Source: a virus. From it: a stretch of DNA of 64,000 nucleotides. The stretch's first letter is position 1. The number at the start of each line of letters is the position of its first letter. Made by a program: the position numbers and the translations under genes. The notes under the pieces were generated by a model. The model was not told where the DNA came from, did no database searches, and saw only the letters and a program-made list of their open reading frames with translations. Location of the stretch: positions 192,001 to 256,000 of IMG/VR virus record IMGVR_UViG_3300010224_000001, one strand, 5' to 3'. This document shows positions 7,702 through 43,437 of the stretch, piece after piece.

Positions 7702-8103
7702 TTATTCCCTTTCTTTACTAGTTTGGAAACGCTCCGGATATTGTTTAGCATAGCTATTATAGATAGCCAAACATTCCGCTTCCGTCGGACGACGAGGCGC
7801 ATCCCTTTCGAACAGCAGCCACATTGCTTGGGTGCGGCCACGTCGTTTATACCACTGCACCCAGAGTGTCATTGCTTCACCAACACCTGGAATTTGACAG
7901 ACGTTAATTGTCGAATAACGTTCATCGTTTTCCAAGTTCACCAGATGTACGTCACTGATATCTTCAAGTTCGGCAATATCACGAATCTTACCAACGGTAG
8001 CGCAGTTCCAGTTATCGGCATTGAAAAGCGCATCTTCGAAAGCACACTTGGGGTCAGTGCCGTTCCAGGGTTTACCGCGCTCAATACAAGCTTTGCATGG
8101 CAT
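7702..8103 (-). CDS. hypothetical protein (Cys-rich)
   Basis: CxxC N-terminus, WYKRRG motif. Confidence 0.65.
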   Translation of the reverse strand: MPCKACIERGKPWNGTDPKCAFEDALFNADNWNCATVGKIRDIAELEDISDVHLVNLENDERYSTINVCQIPGVGEAMTLWVQWYKRRGRTQAMWLLFERDAPRRPTEAECLAIYNSYAKQYPERFQTSKERE

Positions 8104-9347
8104 TATACTTCTCCTTTAAGTTCTCTAAGTAGTTTCTTAACAGCCGAAACACGAACAGCATGGATCGCGTCCTTAAGTTCTCGAACATTCGTCCTGGCTT
8201 TCTGCTGATACTTAACCGCCACGACACCTACTGCCACGCCGCGTGCGGCTGACATAGCTGTCCGGCAGTATTCGGCTTGTGGATAAGGACGATCTTTGAA
8301 CGACACCGTTCTACTAGCTCGACCTCGAGCATCGCACATTGCGGCATCAATGACTTTCAAGAAGCGTTCAGGACGGCGATAGATATCGCAACGTTCAAAC
8401 ATCTTCACCAAAGTAGCAACGCGAATGTCCATAGCCCTGTGAATGTTAAGATGCTCGCGAGAAGTCATTACGGCAATCTCCTCGCAATCCTTAGGAATAC
8501 GCATCCGTTCGCAAATAGCCTTAATCAACGGAACACCAGCTTCTTCATGACCGTGGTGACTTGGCCACTGATCTTCAGGTGTTACTCCTTTGCCAACATC
8601 ATGCATCAACACTGCAAAACGAGTTTCGAGATCATAACCCATTTCAGCAGCATAATTGAGAGAGAGTTCAATGTGTGCTCCTGTCCAAATCTCAGGATGA
8701 TGTTGTTCAGCTTGGGGCACATGCCAGAGTCGATCTAACTCTGGAAAGAAACCAGCCATCAAACCAAAAGCCGTCATCATGGTAAACATCCGTCCTGGTT
8801 TAACTTCCATCAAACCACGAGAAAATTCTTTCCAGATACGCTCCGGGTTAGCACCAACCAATCGATTCTCTAAGAACAACCTTCTCGATAACCAGAATGT
8901 GTCAGTGTCGATTTTAAAGTCAAGATATCGTGCATAGAACCTGCACAACCGAAACGTACGAATCGGGTCTTCTCTGAAGCTTTCTTCAGACACCATTCGC
9001 AGTACTTTGTTCTGAATGTCAGCGCGGCCGTTATGCGGGTCGATGTATTCACGGGTTTCCGGATCATACGCAATCGCATTAATCGTCAGATCACGCTTAG
9101 CCAGATCCTCTTCCAGTGTTACACTGGGATCGAAGGTGGCCACGCCGCCCTGACGTTCACGACGTGCTAGCGAATACTCTTCTTTTGTGAATGGATGCAG
9201 AAAGGTCGGGAAGTCTTTACCGACTTGAATGTAGCCGAGACTAATCATTACCTCAGCAGTAGTGCCTACTACGACCCAGTCTTTATCCTTGGGTGTAATT
9301 CCCATCAGCTGATCTCTTACAGCTCCACCTACTAAATAGACTTTCAT
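8103..9347 (-). CDS. cca: multifunctional CCA tRNA nucleotidyltransferase / HD phosphatase
   Basis: MKVYLVGGAVRD..KDKDWVV, EDLAKRDLTINAIA, EDPIR, ERIWKE, HHPE, LMHDVGKG HD motif. Confidence 0.95.
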   Translation of the reverse strand: MKVYLVGGAVRDQLMGITPKDKDWVVVGTTAEVMISLGYIQVGKDFPTFLHPFTKEEYSLARRERQGGVATFDPSVTLEEDLAKRDLTINAIAYDPETREYIDPHNGRADIQNKVLRMVSEESFREDPIRTFRLCRFYARYLDFKIDTDTFWLSRRLFLENRLVGANPERIWKEFSRGLMEVKPGRMFTMMTAFGLMAGFFPELDRLWHVPQAEQHHPEIWTGAHIELSLNYAAEMGYDLETRFAVLMHDVGKGVTPEDQWPSHHGHEEAGVPLIKAICERMRIPKDCEEIAVMTSREHLNIHRAMDIRVATLVKMFERCDIYRRPERFLKVIDAAMCDARGRASRTVSFKDRPYPQAEYCRTAMSAARGVAVGVVAVKYQQKARTNVRELKDAIHAVRVSAVKKLLRELKGEV

Positions 9348-38481: not shown

Positions 38482-38765
38482 TTCAACACTAAGAAGGAAT
38501 ATGATTTTAGGTTCCAACGCCTTTTGATCAAAATCTTCTTAATGTTGAAACCTGGAGGAAGTTCCATGAATTTAACAGGAGTCTATCTCATGCTATTTTG
38601 TCTCGACTAATAGATACATAGCGTGTACTAAAAGGATCGAATGAGACGCGATAGGACGAGATTGCTTTAGCACTAAGCTAACTTCCAGTGAAAGGAGCTT
38701 CTATTAACCGCTGCTTGGAATCCAACTTTCAGCCAAAAGTTTAAAGGATTACGATTAATAGAAGC
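38482..38765 (-). ncRNA. candidate structured ncRNA(s): three tandem long stem-loop domains
   Basis: 15-bp and 14-bp terminal helices with G-U pairs on the minus strand; no credible ORF; terminator at 38430. Confidence 0.4.
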
Positions 38766-41870: not shown

Positions 41871-42008
41871 TGGTCGGGCGTTCTTGGAATCGAACCAAGG
41901 ACCTTCGTCTTGTGGTGAGGTTCCCCTCTGGCCGATCGCCTAAGCGGTCGCATCCGCCGAAGCGAATGGAATATTGGACGATGCTCTACCGAACTGAGCT
42001 AAACCCCG
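41871..42008 (-). ncRNA. tRNA-scaffold RNA 0: tRNA body with 67-nt three-hairpin insert replacing the anticodon loop
   Basis: CGGGGTT-TA-GCTC..GAGC-A-TCGTC[insert 41910-41976]GACGA-AGGTC-CTTGG-TTCGATT-CCAAG-AAC(G)CCCG-A-CCA. Confidence 0.85.
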
Positions 42009-42016
42009 TAAGTCTT

Positions 42017-42691
42017 TCAACCTTTTGCTACTAGTGTAAACTCAACAGGTTTGCCATCTGGTAAGAATACACTCTCAGCGTAGGTGAACATGTAAAACTT
42101 GTCAGCAGGATCCCATTTCTCATCATCCATTTTGTACATTGCAAACACTAACTCGTGAGTAATGTGTAAACAACGATTGGCTAACTTGGAGAACTCAGCA
42201 CTGACAATGATGTTACCGTAGGAGTAAGTAGTACCTTTATCCCACGAGAACGACATTGGCTTTTCTGGAGCATAACTCCATTTATCACCAGGCTTGGCTT
42301 TCTTGTATCGTTCAGTTATACCAGCGTCTTGCTGACCTGGATTAATTTTGAAACCACGATACAGCAATGGATGATTCGGAGGACGTTGAATCGATTCAAA
42401 GACTTTTTTAGCTTCTCGAAGTTTATCTAAGAGACTGTAATCAGTAACAGACACCCACTGATCAACAGCTTGAAGAAGTTCTTTGTGCTGCAACATCTTT
42501 TCAACGATCTTCATGTCTACATCTTCTTTCTGGAATGCCAGTTGAGGCGTGTATCCAAAAAGTTTTATTAAGCGCATCAGAATTTTCTTCTTCCACTCAG
42601 CTTCTTTGTAGACTTCGTTGAAGTTTGCTTCTTTCTCTAGACTGACAGAATTATCTGTAATCCAGTCTATATAAACAGGTTTAGTCGTCAT
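42017..42691 (-). CDS. putative ADP-ribosyltransferase (R-S-E clade-like)
   Basis: LLYRG...PMSFSW...YAESVF pattern; motif-level only. Confidence 0.45.
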   Translation of the reverse strand: MTTKPVYIDWITDNSVSLEKEANFNEVYKEAEWKKKILMRLIKLFGYTPQLAFQKEDVDMKIVEKMLQHKELLQAVDQWVSVTDYSLLDKLREAKKVFESIQRPPNHPLLYRGFKINPGQQDAGITERYKKAKPGDKWSYAPEKPMSFSWDKGTTYSYGNIIVSAEFSKLANRCLHITHELVFAMYKMDDEKWDPADKFYMFTYAESVFLPDGKPVEFTLVAKG

Positions 42692-42752
42692 GGTTTACCG
42701 TTACAAATGAGGGTGATAATCATAGTAATTGGTGAGACTAAACCTGTTGAAT

Positions 42753-42917
42753 TGGTGGGACGTTCCTAGATTTGAACTAGGGACCTCGATCTAGTTTAGA
42801 TGGAACCTGATTAGGGTTCTGCCTTTAACCACTCGGCCATACCTCCTAACGGAGATAGAGGGATTCGAACCCTCGGATCTTTGGTTGATCGCGCTCTAAC
42901 CGCTGAGCTAAACTCCC
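42753..42917 (-). ncRNA. tRNA-scaffold RNA A: outer tRNA with nested class II tRNA permuted in its variable arm
   Basis: GGGAGTT..CGATC[95 nt]GATCG-AGGTC-CCTAG-TTCAAAT-CTAGG-AAC(G)TCCC-A-CCA. Confidence 0.9.
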
Positions 42918-42938
42918 GGATACTTCTACTACAATGTT

Positions 42939-43110
42939 TGGTGGAGCGATGCAAGATTCGAACTTGCGACCTCTGTCTAAGCTTTGACTAGCAGGATTGT
43001 GCTCTAACCATCTGAGCTACTAACGGACGTTGACACCCGTTAGATCGGACTTGAACCGATGACCCCAATCGTGAATAAGACAGCGTTCTACCTGACTGAA
43101 CTAATCCCCC
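42939..43110 (-). ncRNA. tRNA-scaffold RNA B: outer tRNA with nested anticodon-permuted tRNA
   Basis: GGGGGAT..CTGTC[101 nt]GACAG-AGGTC-GCAAG-TTCGAAT-CTTGC-ATC(G)CTCC-A-CCA. Confidence 0.9.
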
Positions 43111-43128
43111 ATGTACTACTTTGAAACT

Positions 43129-43288
43129 TGGTGGAGCGATCTAGGAATCGAACCTAGGACCTCTGCCTGAGTCGAATGCTCTACCAGCTGAGCTACCGAT
43201 AAGTAACGAAGTGTTACCTACCGAGCGGGACTCGAACCCGCGACCCGTCGATTAGAATGGCAGCGCTCTATCACTGAGCTAATCCCCC
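43129..43288 (-). ncRNA. tRNA-scaffold RNA C: outer tRNA with nested anticodon-permuted tRNA
   Basis: GGGGGAT..CTGCC[91 nt]GGCAG-AGGTC-CTAGG-TTCGATT-CCTAG-ATC(G)CTCC-A-CCA. Confidence 0.9.
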
Positions 43289-43307
43289 GCAAACTGCTTT
43301 GTGAAAC

Positions 43308-43437
43308 TGGTAGGGCGCTTCTGGATTTTAACCAGAGACCTCCGTCTAGTTAACCAATAACCACACCCCCGTTGGGAGGTACGGCTGGACTTGAACCAGC
43401 GATTTGACGGCGCTCTAACAGGCTGAGCTAAGCCCCT
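43308..43437 (-). ncRNA. tRNA-scaffold RNA D: outer tRNA with minimal permuted T-arm/acceptor/D-like insert
   Basis: AGGGGCT..CCGTC[59 nt]GACGG-AGGTC-TCTGG-TTAAAAT-CCAGA-AGC(G)CCCT-A-CCA. Confidence 0.85.

What the first reader, a model, noticed from the sequence alone, without database searches (positions are those of the whole stretch)
41871..43437. Invariant bulged G in the acceptor stem of all five scaffold RNAs
The 3' acceptor strands are 8 nt: AAC-G-CCCG, AAC-G-TCCC, ATC-G-CTCC (twice) and AGC-G-CCCT, pairing 7-nt 5' strands (CGGGGTT, GGGAGTT, GGGGGAT, AGGGGCT). The G bulge sits at the same position while flanking pairs covary, and none of the normal tRNAs here has it. Inference: a dedicated identity element or an anti-determinant (e.g. 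against EF-Tu or synthetases) marking these RNAs as non-translational.
Basis: partly seen in the sequence, partly recalled or inferred. Interest (0 to 1): 0.75.

Follow-up and report, generated by a model that had tools for sequence, protein, structure and literature searches.

The report
Acceptor-stem bulge in phage tRNA look-alikes
Five tRNA-shaped RNAs of a giant phage that cannot read codons all carry one extra unpaired base at the same spot in the stem that normally holds the amino acid; some related phages keep an extra base there and others do not, so it looks like a selected shape mark whose purpose is still untested.

Summary
On the minus strand, five 130-172-nt RNAs (R1-R5) have a tRNA frame with an encoded ACCA end. 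Their anticodon loop is replaced by an insert. Each has an 8-nt 3' acceptor strand, and the only register giving 7 of 7 pairs leaves its fourth base, a G, unpaired. None of the 8 ordinary tRNAs of the phage has the extra base.

The G is not invariant beyond this phage. Two other 310-324-kb phages keep a bulge at the same site in 6 of 6 such RNAs. There it is U, A, G, U-or-G, AU or UC. Three further phages (271, 272 and 222 kb) lack it in 6 of 6. One of those RNAs has an insert homologous to the inserts of R3-R5. By shared ORFs this phage is nearer to the 271-272-kb phages without the bulge. So bulge status follows the genome, not the RNA lineage.

I read it as a selected shape mark, not a base-specific one. 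Most likely it is an anti-determinant against the translation machinery, but that is inference. RtcB and the CCA-adding enzyme do not track it. This scan saw the same feature before on other DNA (e1-5322503). I found no paper describing it.

The parts
41871..42008 (-). R1, 138 nt. tRNA frame with a hairpin-type insert in place of the anticodon loop. 5' acceptor strand 42008..42002, 3' strand 41882..41875, unpaired G at 41879, ACCA at 41874..41871.
   Evidence: MFE gives the bulged stem; 124.5 bits, a training sequence of the model
42753..42917 (-). R2, 165 nt. tRNA frame whose insert is a back-to-front tRNA body with a closed acceptor stem, plus an extra hairpin. 3' strand 42764..42757, unpaired G at 42761.
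   Evidence: ARAGORN's tRNA-Ile(aat) at 42757-42846 is part of this RNA.
42939..43110 (-). R3, 172 nt. tRNA frame with a complete back-to-front tRNA body as insert. G3:U70 and A73. 3' strand 42950..42943, unpaired G at 42947.
   Evidence: (YrlA model 34.0 bits, below its cut-off of 69)
43129..43288 (-). R4, 160 nt. Same build as R3 with identical acceptor strands. 3' strand 43140..43133, unpaired G at 43137.
   Evidence: (YrlA 32.6 bits); contig X1 record 5 covers it and no change is listed in the 3' strand.
43308..43437 (-). R5, 130 nt. tRNA frame whose insert is a reduced back-to-front tRNA body. 3' strand 43319..43312, unpaired G at 43316.
   Evidence: contig X4 record 27 covers it with 9 other letters and 3 gaps in all; every difference listed lies in the insert (43364-43384) and none in the 3' strand.
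42017..42691 (-). 224-aa gene between R2 and R1 (62 nt after R2, 9 nt before R1) with a predicted ADP-ribosyltransferase-like fold. Listed as context only; it is not shown to belong to the RNAs.
   Evidence: no Pfam family; pLDDT 79.8; phrog_29772, function unknown

Best explanation
The extra base is a real, maintained 1-2-nt bulge on the 3' strand of the acceptor helix, between positions 68 and 69. It occurs in non-decoding, tRNA-framed RNAs of a jumbo phage. It makes the 3' strand of the stacked acceptor/T helix 13 nt long against 12 nt on the 5' strand. That should kink or loosen the helix four pairs from the end, while the first four pairs, A73, the ACCA tail and the D/T elbow stay intact.

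The base differs between phages while the position holds, so the mark is a shape and not a letter. My most likely reading is inferred, not shown. The bulge keeps these anticodon-less RNAs out of the translation cycle, through poor fit to EF-Tu and the ribosome and perhaps to some synthetases. Their free tRNA-like end then stays available for another use, such as soaking up or engaging factors that act on tRNA ends.

Shown: the bulge itself, its restriction to the anticodon-less RNAs, its position across three phage lineages, and its absence in sister phages. Inferred: selection on it, and every step of the function.
For: The register is unique in 5 of 5 RNAs, and MFE folding finds it unaided in 3 of 5.

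The bulge is restricted to insert-bearing frames. It is absent from all 8 ordinary tRNAs of this phage. No ordinary-length match from the related loci needs an extra base on my reading of the strands printed.

The position is conserved while the base and size change. G051 has CGC-U-UGGA and CUG-A-CGGA. G054 has CCA-G-CGGA, CC-T-GCGGG (or CCT-G-CGGG), CCT-AT-GGGA and CCT-TC-GGGT. Pairs on both sides of the bulge covary: 4-69 is GC, AU or CG, and 5-68 is GC, CG, UA or AU.

The bulge changed between 1 and 2 nt, so indels do happen at this site, yet it is absent from none of the 11 distinct RNAs.

Two environmental contigs cover R5 and R4. The differences listed lie in the insert or the T loop, and none lies in the 3' acceptor strand.

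In the wider sample, 36 of 54 distinct insert-bearing frames have plain stems. Of the 18 with an extra base, 16 belong to these three lineages.

Bulge status is all-or-none per genome across RNAs with unrelated inserts. G058a, which has no bulge, has an insert homologous to those of R3, R4 and R5 (z = 15.6, 13.7, 11.3).

[quoted passage not shown] Cas12a3 clips tRNA tails and binds the same tRNA face as EF-Tu, so it acts on free tRNAs (PMC12851939).
Against: No experiment of any kind bears on function.

Six of 6 RNAs of the same build in G057, G058 and G050 lack the bulge, so a non-decoding RNA of this kind can do without it.

A sixth tRNA-frame RNA in this window (38686..38553) has a plain stem.

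The bulge leaves pairs 1-4 and A73 untouched, the part I recall several synthetases as reading. R3 and R4 keep G3:U70 with A73, so they may still be charged with alanine.

All five RNAs here could descend from one bulged frame by duplication. R3 and R4 have identical stems, and 5-68 is G-C in all five. The count of five is therefore not five independent events.

MFE folding did not give the cloverleaf for R4 and R5.
Confidence: 0.35

Rival explanations
1. The bulge is a positive docking mark. It widens or bends the helix so that a dedicated phage or host protein recognises these RNAs. That partner differs between phages or hosts, which would explain why whole sets of RNAs in a genome share the same state.
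For: The state is all-or-none per genome: 5 of 5, 2 of 2 and 4 of 4 with the bulge against 3 of 3, 2 of 2 and 1 of 1 without. It cuts across RNA lineages and across genome similarity, since G000 is nearer to the phages without the bulge. A gene with a predicted ADP-ribosyltransferase-like fold sits inside the RNA cluster.
Against: No candidate partner was found. RtcB is absent from G051, G054, G057, G058 and G052. The CCA-adding enzyme is present in G057 and G058 and absent from G051, G054 and G050. The 224-aa gene is absent from G054, which has the bulge. Only 4 ORFs, two of them overlapping on opposite strands, are shared with G051 and G054 alone; one carries an RNase H-like domain and the rest have no family. 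The base at the site is not conserved.
Confidence: 0.25
2. The bulge is a tolerated quirk. It arose once in an ancestral frame and spread by duplication, insert swapping or gene conversion within the RNA cluster. It has no function of its own.
For: R3 and R4 have identical acceptor strands. Pairs 2-71, 5-68 and 7-66 and the G itself do not vary within this phage. The outer frames are alike. Sister phages do without the bulge. The 224-aa gene inside the cluster is 65% identical to G051's against a mean of 39% over the ORFs this phage shares with G051, which hints that this region is mosaic.
Against: Pairs on both sides of the bulge changed by compensating substitutions. The bulge changed base and length, yet it is absent from none of 11 distinct RNAs in three lineages. 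It never appears in the decoding tRNAs of the same clusters. Only about 7 of 970 normal-length frames in the sample have a clean internal bulge.
Confidence: 0.2
3. The bulge tunes processing or turnover. It would change how RNase P, 3' exonucleases or the CCA-adding enzyme treat these RNAs, for example by marking them for a second CCA and decay or by protecting them from that.
For: All of these RNAs encode A73-CCA. The phage has its own CCA-adding enzyme with an HD domain at window 8103-9347. I recall, from no call, that CCACCA tagging by the CCA-adding enzyme depends on acceptor-stem instability or a bulge plus a 5' GG (Kuhn et al. 2015).
Against: The 5' ends are CG, GG, GG, GG and AG here, and UC or AC in the bulged relatives, so a 5' GG is not conserved. 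The phage CCA-adding enzyme does not co-occur with the bulge.
Confidence: 0.1
4. There is no bulge in the cell. The strand might pair in another register, the G might sit in a non-standard pair or triple, or the RNAs might not be made or folded as drawn.
For: MFE folding misses the cloverleaf for R4 and R5. I have no transcript data.
Against: All other registers lose at least one pair in 5 of 5 RNAs. An 8-bp acceptor stem is not possible with these strands. The frame as a whole is supported by covariation: 98.1% of cells paired over 54 matches, with 0 of 500 shuffles as high, on an alignment that was fitted to the model.
Confidence: 0.07

Closest known systems
YrlA-type Y RNA-like RNAs of bacteria and mycobacteriophages (Rfam RF02553; Chen et al. 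2014, PMC4201824, passages read)
   Same: The inserts of R2-R5 are back-to-front tRNA bodies with a T arm, a closed acceptor-like stem and a D arm, like the tRNA-like domain of YrlA. R3 and R4 give weak matches to the YrlA model.
   Different: The scores of 34.0 and 32.6 bits are far below the cut-off of 69. The genome has no Ro60/TROVE gene. Here the stem formed by the two RNA ends is a whole second tRNA frame with an open ACCA end. An acceptor-stem bulge is not a described YrlA feature.
Canonical tRNA (Rfam RF00005)
   Same: D arm, T arm, 5-bp anticodon stem, 7 acceptor pairs, A73 and an encoded CCA.
   Different: There is no 7-nt anticodon loop; a 59-101-nt insert stands in its place. The acceptor stem is interrupted by the extra base. 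Only one partial match reaches the tRNA cut-off.
tRNA-Sec and allo-tRNAs with 8/5, 9/4, 8/4 or 9/3 acceptor/T branches, some with a bulged A51a (Mukai et al. 2017, PMC5389517, passages; review PMC7609411, passages)
   Same: They depart from the 7/5 rule of the acceptor/T helix. In tRNA-Sec the longer helix is reported to lower EF-Tu binding. A single bulged base occurs in some of them.
   Different: In those tRNAs both strands are lengthened, or the split between the two stems is shifted, and the bulge is in the T stem. Here only the 3' strand has an extra base, in the acceptor stem, and the RNAs have no anticodon.
Earlier finding of this scan, e1-5322503: a conserved acceptor-stem defect in four tRNA look-alikes of a giant soil phage
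   Same: It appears to be the same feature. The RNA stretch of G054 that I tested shares 155 of 180 short words with sister findings e1-5322498 and e1-5322502. I counted 4 of 4 of its RNAs as bulged.
   Different: It concerns another phage, and there the base is not G in every RNA and two bulges are 2 nt long. It is an AI note, not a publication.

Membership tests
Canonical decoding tRNA (RF00005) | 7-nt anticodon loop closed by a 5-bp stem | tested here: not met
   The 5-bp stem encloses 59-101 nt in R1-R5.
Canonical decoding tRNA (RF00005) | Uninterrupted 7-bp acceptor stem | tested here: not met
   There are seven pairs, but one unpaired base sits on the 3' strand in 5 of 5 RNAs.
Canonical decoding tRNA (RF00005) | Score at or above Rfam's gathering cut-off (29 bits) | tested here: not met
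   Only 42850-42917, a part of R2, reaches 33.5 bits. Partial matches inside R3 and R4 score 26.7, 25.3 and 23.8 bits. R1 and R5 have no match listed.
YrlA / Y RNA-like (RF02553) | Score at or above the gathering cut-off (69 bits) | tested here: not met
   34.0 and 32.6 bits.
YrlA / Y RNA-like (RF02553) | A Ro60/Rsr (TROVE) gene in the genome, usually adjacent | tested here: not met
   PF05731 gave 0 matches in the complete 322,570-bp genome, and the control genomes responded. A host copy cannot be excluded.
YrlA / Y RNA-like (RF02553) | tRNA-like module with a T arm, closed acceptor-like stem and D arm | tested here: met
   This is my reading of the inserts of R2-R5, and the YrlA alignment of R3 shows it. 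R1 has no such module.
YrlA / Y RNA-like (RF02553) | Conserved GNCGAAN(0-1)G motif thought to bind Ro60 (PMC4201824) | not tested
   I saw no obvious copy by eye and ran no search for it.
8/4 or 9/3 allo-tRNA, or 8/5 tRNA-Sec | 8 or 9 contiguous acceptor pairs with a correspondingly set T stem | tested here: not met
   The 5' strand has 7 nt before U8-A9 and the D stem. The T stem has 5 pairs. No register gives 8 pairs.
Alanine-type acceptor (AlaRS substrates, including tmRNA) | G3:U70 with A73 (feature set recalled, from no call) | tested here: inconclusive
   Present in R3 and R4 only; R1, R2 and R5 have G3-C70. Present in 5 of 5 RNAs of G057 and G058, which have no bulge. Charging was not tested.

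The most novel reading that the evidence does not exclude
The acceptor-helix irregularity is the tag of a new class of phage RNAs. The tag is a bulge in this phage, G051 and G054, and the G3:U70 wobble in G057 and G058. The RNAs would be two-bodied tRNA mimics that are deliberately unfit for EF-Tu and the ribosome. Their free ACCA tails and elbows would act as decoys or substrates for host immune enzymes that attack tRNA ends, or for a phage enzyme such as the ADP-ribosyltransferase-like protein encoded inside the cluster. On this reading the state of the tag co-evolves with a partner that differs between hosts or phages. That would explain why whole RNA sets are all bulged or all plain.
Probability: 0.15. 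Interest if true: 0.85.

Novelty: new variant of a known kind. Interest (0 to 1): 0.55.

Why it matters
tRNA acceptor stems are among the most constrained helices known. Here, in three phage lineages, a bulge sits at one fixed site only in RNAs that cannot decode. That makes it a natural marker separating tRNA look-alikes from working tRNAs. It is also cheap to test: the same RNA can be made with and without the base.

If the bulge blocks EF-Tu or the synthetases, it shows how phages keep decoy or scaffold tRNAs from disturbing translation. If it recruits a partner, it leads to the unknown function of the two-bodied tRNA mimics of jumbo phages. I found those RNAs in no paper searched.

The all-or-none state per genome, which cuts across RNA lineage and genome kinship, is the most telling result and deserves a proper phylogenetic test.

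Tried and rejected
A link to RtcB is rejected. RtcB lies at G000 191211-192338, but 0 of 5 related phages have it (G051, G054, G057, G058, G052).

A link to the phage CCA-adding enzyme is rejected. It is present in G057 and G058, which lack the bulge, and absent from G051 and G054, which have it.

A Ro60 partner encoded by the phage is rejected. The genome has no TROVE match.

An exact 3' motif (GGTC..TTCRAWT..ANCGYYCNACCA) gave 0 matches in IMG/VR, so the G-type strand is not found elsewhere as such.

Gene-content profiling gave no candidate partner. I ran 858 ORFs of G000 by tblastn against four whole relatives. Only 4 ORFs, two of them overlapping on opposite strands, are shared with G051 and G054 alone. 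One has an RNase H-like domain and the others have no family. With five genomes this has no statistical weight.

Promoter-like sites were at the level of shuffled sequence and terminator-like sites only somewhat above it (9 against 4.9, sd 2.1); the scan settled nothing.

My counts of plain and bulged frames therefore come from a sample and not a census. That sample was partly drawn with patterns that require TAGAGC, GAGGTC and ACCA.

Expression: no RNA holder was listed, so I have no evidence either way. The DNA holders had small shares. I laid four of them and used only the two contigs that span R4 and R5.

The closest relative by RtcB (L122, 85% identity, a 70.5-kb fragment) had no match to the RNA model, probably because the fragment does not reach the RNA cluster.

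They may hold further members.

Supplementary files of the papers were not opened. Those of PMC4201824 (phage YrlA lists) and PMC5389517 (irregular phage tRNAs) might bear on whether such RNAs were listed before.

The CCACCA work of Kuhn et al. 2015 and the AlaRS minihelix work are recalled, not read.
Full report
WHAT IS THERE

The window is G000:C1:192001-256000 of a complete 322,570-bp phage record with direct terminal repeats. Earlier notes of this scan call it a nucleus-forming jumbo phage with PhuZ and a chimallin-like gene; I did not test that.

All nine ARAGORN tRNA calls of the genome lie in the window, on the minus strand. Between 41871 and 43437 lie five RNAs with the same frame:
- a 7-nt 5' acceptor strand, then U8-A9;
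- a standard D arm;
- a 5-bp anticodon stem;
- an insert of 59-101 nt where the 7-nt loop should be;
- a variable loop AGGTC and a T arm;
- an 8-nt 3' acceptor strand, then ACCA.

Their ends are R1 42008..41871 (138 nt), R2 42917..42753 (165), R3 43110..42939 (172), R4 43288..43129 (160) and R5 43437..43308 (130).

In R2-R5 the insert is a second tRNA body in back-to-front order with a closed acceptor-like stem. R3 and R4 give weak matches to Rfam's YrlA model (34.0 and 32.6 bits; the cut-off is 69). R1 carries hairpins instead. ARAGORN's tRNA-Ile(aat) at 42757-42846 is a false call made from parts of R2.

THE OBSERVATION

I listed every way to leave one base of the 8-nt strand unpaired. Leaving out base 4, the G, is the only register with 7 of 7 pairs in all five RNAs. 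All other registers give at most 6. Unconstrained folding finds the 3-bp / bulge / 4-bp stem for R1, R2 and R3, but not for R4 and R5, where other pairings of the long insert win.

A whole-genome regex found an exact T arm followed by 8 nt and ACCA only in these five RNAs. The 8 ordinary tRNAs of the phage have plain stems.

Pairs 1-72, 3-70 (GC/GU), 4-69 and 6-67 vary. Pairs 2-71, 5-68 and 7-66 do not. R3 and R4 have identical stems.

A sixth, AT-rich tRNA-frame RNA at 38686..38553 (134 nt, 34.4 bits) has a plain GGAAGTT/AACTTCC stem.

RELATIVES

The 224-aa protein encoded between R2 and R1 has 21 homologues. An alignment of them led to G051, a 310,654-bp phage. A pattern scan that allowed either 7 or 8 nt before ACCA and a covariance model of the five RNAs led to G054 (323,678 bp), G055 and G056 (same RNAs as G051), G057 (271,026 bp) and G058 (272,470 bp). 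A search through RtcB gave G050 (221,828 bp).

Acceptor strands of all insert-bearing matches:

| Phage | 5' strand / 3' strand | State |
|---|---|---|
| G051 (same RNAs in G055 and G056) | TCCAGCG / CGC-T-TGGA | bulged |
| G051 | TCCGCAG / CTG-A-CGGA | bulged |
| G054 | TCCGTGG / CCA-G-CGGA | bulged |
| G054 | TCCGTGG / CC-T-GCGGG (or CCT-G-CGGG with one mismatch) | bulged |
| G054 | TCCCAGG / CCT-AT-GGGA | bulged, 2 nt |
| G054 | ACCCAGG / CCT-TC-GGGT | bulged, 2 nt |
| G058 | GGGCATG / CATGTCC | plain |
| G058 | GGGTGTG / CACATCC | plain |
| G058 | GGGCGTT / AACGTCC | plain |
| G057 | GGGCATG / CATGTCC | plain |
| G057 | GGGTATG / CATATCC | plain |
| G050 | CGGGGTG / CACCCCG | plain |

So 6 of 6 distinct RNAs in two further lineages keep a bulge at the same site. 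For 5 of them strand position 4 is the best or joint-best register. The base differs, and in two RNAs the bulge is 2 nt long. Another 6 of 6 RNAs in three phages have none.

The cultured Ralstonia phage RP12 has one unannotated 108-nt RNA of this kind. Its extra base fits best at the junction of the T stem and the acceptor stem, not at 68/69, and the RNA ends ATCA.

By my reading of the strands printed, no ordinary-length match in these loci needs an extra base.

Over all 54 matches the frame is strongly supported: 98.1% of cells are paired and 0 of 500 shuffles reach that. The alignment was fitted to the model, which favours the structure.

A WIDER, BULGE-AGNOSTIC COUNT

I wrote a parser that asks for U8, A14, a 4-bp D stem, a 5-bp anticodon stem, a 4-5-nt variable loop and a 5-bp T stem. 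It then tries 7, 8 or 9 nt for the 3' strand. I ran it over 471 loci plus the genome, 3.8 Mb in all.

Among 970 distinct normal-length frames, 946 were plain and 24 had an 'extra base' solution. Of those 24, 15 were off-by-one artefacts at strand position 7. About 7 were clean internal bulges, and six of those have a CAT anticodon.

Among 54 distinct insert-bearing frames, 36 were plain and 18 had an extra base. Sixteen of the 18 belong to this phage, the G051 type or G054. The other two are a position-2 case (L112) and a weak case (L217).

The sample is not a census.

WHO IS RELATED TO WHOM

I ran tblastn with 858 ORFs of G000 against the four whole relatives. This gave 284 hits in G058, 239 in G057, 177 in G051 and 150 in G054. 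Of the 121 ORFs found in all four, the best hit was in G058 or G057 for 99. So this phage is nearer to the two phages without the bulge.

The inserts tell the same story. The insert of G058a, which has no bulge, is clearly homologous to those of R3, R4 and R5 (local-alignment z = 15.6, 13.7 and 11.3 against shuffles). G051a groups with G054d and G054a (z = 38 and 13). G058c groups with G057b (z = 16).

Bulge state is therefore all-or-none per genome, and it cuts across both RNA lineage and genome kinship. Three histories could give this pattern:
- an ancestral bulge that the G057/G058 line lost in all its RNAs;
- independent gains of the bulge;
- exchange of the RNA cluster between phages.

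The 224-aa gene inside the cluster is 65% identical to G051's but 28-30% to those of G057 and G058, against a mean of about 39% over the ORFs this phage shares with G051. That hints at a mosaic region. I cannot say which history is right.

VARIATION IN NEAR-IDENTICAL DNA

Four public runs held small parts of the stretch, and none is on record as RNA. When laid, one contig (X4 record 27, 151 nt, 9 other letters and 3 gaps) spans R5. One contig (X1 record 5, 256 nt, 3 other letters and 1 gap) spans R4. The differences listed lie in the insert of R5 (43364-43384) and in the T loop of R4 (43147-43150), with one inserted base in the spacer between R4 and R5. No difference is listed in the 3' acceptor strands. 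Each is a single low-depth contig, so this is weak support.

SEARCH FOR A PARTNER

- RtcB is present here and absent from 5 of 5 relatives tested.
- The phage's CCA-adding enzyme (PolyA_pol head, RNA-binding and HD domains; window 8103-9347) is present in G057 and G058 at 50% identity. It is absent from G051, G054 and G050.
- The genome has no TROVE/Ro60 match.
- The 224-aa protein has no Pfam family and no sequence match to solved structures.
- Its AlphaFold model (pLDDT 79.8) matches ADP-ribosyltransferases. Most of the Foldseek rows shown are such enzymes, but all are weak (E = 0.07 or more). In the wide VIA-align search, 22 of the 23 rows with Z of 5 or more are ADP-ribosyltransferase-type folds, with Z from 5.1 to 7.0 and 77 to 144 residues aligned. 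The tool warns that Z below 8 can reflect only a common arrangement.
- The alignment has invariant R112-G113, S147 and S149, and E206. From memory, these resemble the R-S-E triad of that family.
- The gene is absent from G054, so it does not track the bulge.

INTERPRETATION

Shown:
- the bulge is real at the sequence level;
- it occurs only in the RNAs without an anticodon loop;
- it is fixed in position over three lineages while the base and the flanking pairs change;
- it is absent from sister phages.

Inferred:
- it is under selection as a shape;
- it makes the 3' strand of the acceptor/T helix 13 nt long against 12 nt on the 5' strand, four pairs from the end.

[quoted passage not shown] That makes an EF-Tu anti-determinant plausible. 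A 2026 paper shows an immune nuclease, Cas12a3, that clips the CCA tails of free tRNAs and binds the face that EF-Tu uses (PMC12851939). So an RNA with a permanently free tRNA-like end could serve as a decoy. This is a lead, not a result.

Against a general anti-synthetase role: the bulge leaves pairs 1-4 and A73 intact. R3 and R4 keep what I recall as the alanine acceptor set. All five RNAs of G057 and G058 have G3:U70 with A73 and no bulge.

I put 0.35 on the anti-determinant reading, 0.25 on a docking mark for an unknown partner, 0.2 on a neutral inherited quirk, 0.1 on a role in processing or turnover, and 0.07 on the bulge not forming in the cell.

WHAT IS KNOWN

I found no paper that describes tRNA-framed RNAs with a nested tRNA body in phages, or a conserved acceptor-stem bulge in tRNA look-alikes. 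The searches were:
- YrlA + phage + tRNA-like (2 papers);
- acceptor stem + bulge + tRNA-like + bacteriophage (16 papers);
- jumbo phage + tRNA-like (3 papers);
- phage / tRNA / decoy / acceptor stem / anticodon nuclease;
- permuted tRNA terms;
- phage-encoded tRNA / non-canonical / acceptor stem / bulge.

For these I saw listings. I read passages of PMC7824862, PMC5389517, PMC12851939, PMC9976931, PMC4201824 and PMC7609411. No supplements were seen.

This scan has noted such RNAs many times on other DNA. It noted the bulge itself in a record whose RNA stretch matches the G054 stretch I tested (e1-5322503, with sister findings). The present window adds three things. All five bulges here are G. 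The nearest whole-genome relatives lack the bulge. Neither RtcB nor the CCA-adding enzyme tracks it.

VERDICT

The feature is real and apparently undescribed, its function is unknown, and it is a new variant within tRNA-like RNAs. Interest: 0.55.

Noticed in passing
window 42017-42691 (-): The 224-aa gene wedged between R2 and R1 has no Pfam family, but its model matches ADP-ribosyltransferases. In the wide VIA-align search 22 of the 23 rows with Z of 5 or more are of that fold type (Z 5.1-7.0). The alignment has invariant R112-G113, S147/S149 and E206. It has 21 homologues, and the gene lies 2-15 kb from the RNA cluster in RP12, G057, G058 and G051. It could act on these RNAs; that is untested.
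   Followed up: partly
window 42757-42846 (-): ARAGORN's 'tRNA-Ile (aat)' is a false call. It joins the inner tRNA body of R2 to the outer T arm and 3' strand of R2.
   Followed up: yes
window 38553-38686 (-): A sixth, AT-rich (40% G+C) tRNA-frame RNA of 134 nt with an insert. It has one base instead of two between the acceptor and D stems, a T stem with one mismatch, a plain 7-bp acceptor stem and a TCCA end. It scores 34.4 bits with my model.
   Followed up: partly
window 8103-9347 (-), and G000 191211-192338 (-) at the window's start: The phage encodes its own CCA-adding enzyme with an HD domain (PF01743, PF12627, PF01966) and an RtcB RNA ligase (432 bits). Together they make a tRNA-end repair kit. 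Neither gene co-occurs with the bulge in relatives.
   Followed up: yes
L361 3534-4139 (G058) and L363 2955-3557 (G057): All five insert-bearing tRNA-frame RNAs of these two 271-272-kb phages have G3:U70 and A73, which I recall as the alanine mark, and no bulge. R3 and R4 of the window have both the mark and the bulge. The two irregularities may be alternative or combined solutions to one need.
   Followed up: partly
L379, L388, L416, L378, L070, L016 (unrelated IMG/VR contigs): Six normal-length tRNAs with a CAT anticodon carry a clean one-base bulge at position 3-5 of the 3' acceptor strand. Five end ACCA and one ends ACAA. Several begin TGCGGG, which I recall as like bacterial initiator tRNA. 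These are a different set of bulged phage tRNAs.
   Followed up: partly
L002 10505-10612 (-), about AP017924.1 131865-131972: The cultured Ralstonia phage RP12 has an unannotated 108-nt tRNA-frame RNA with a hairpin insert, next to its annotated tRNA-Asn. It has an extra base near the junction of the T stem and acceptor stem and ends ATCA. It is a handle for wet-lab work.
   Followed up: partly
window 41871-42008 (R1); L244 10396-10521; L362 3750-3887; L361 3828-3965: The hairpin-type inserts end with a CACCA-like run (CACCACAA, CACCAACCA, CCACCACAT, TCACCATT) just before the 3' strand of the anticodon stem. It may be an internal copy of a tRNA 3' end.
   Followed up: no
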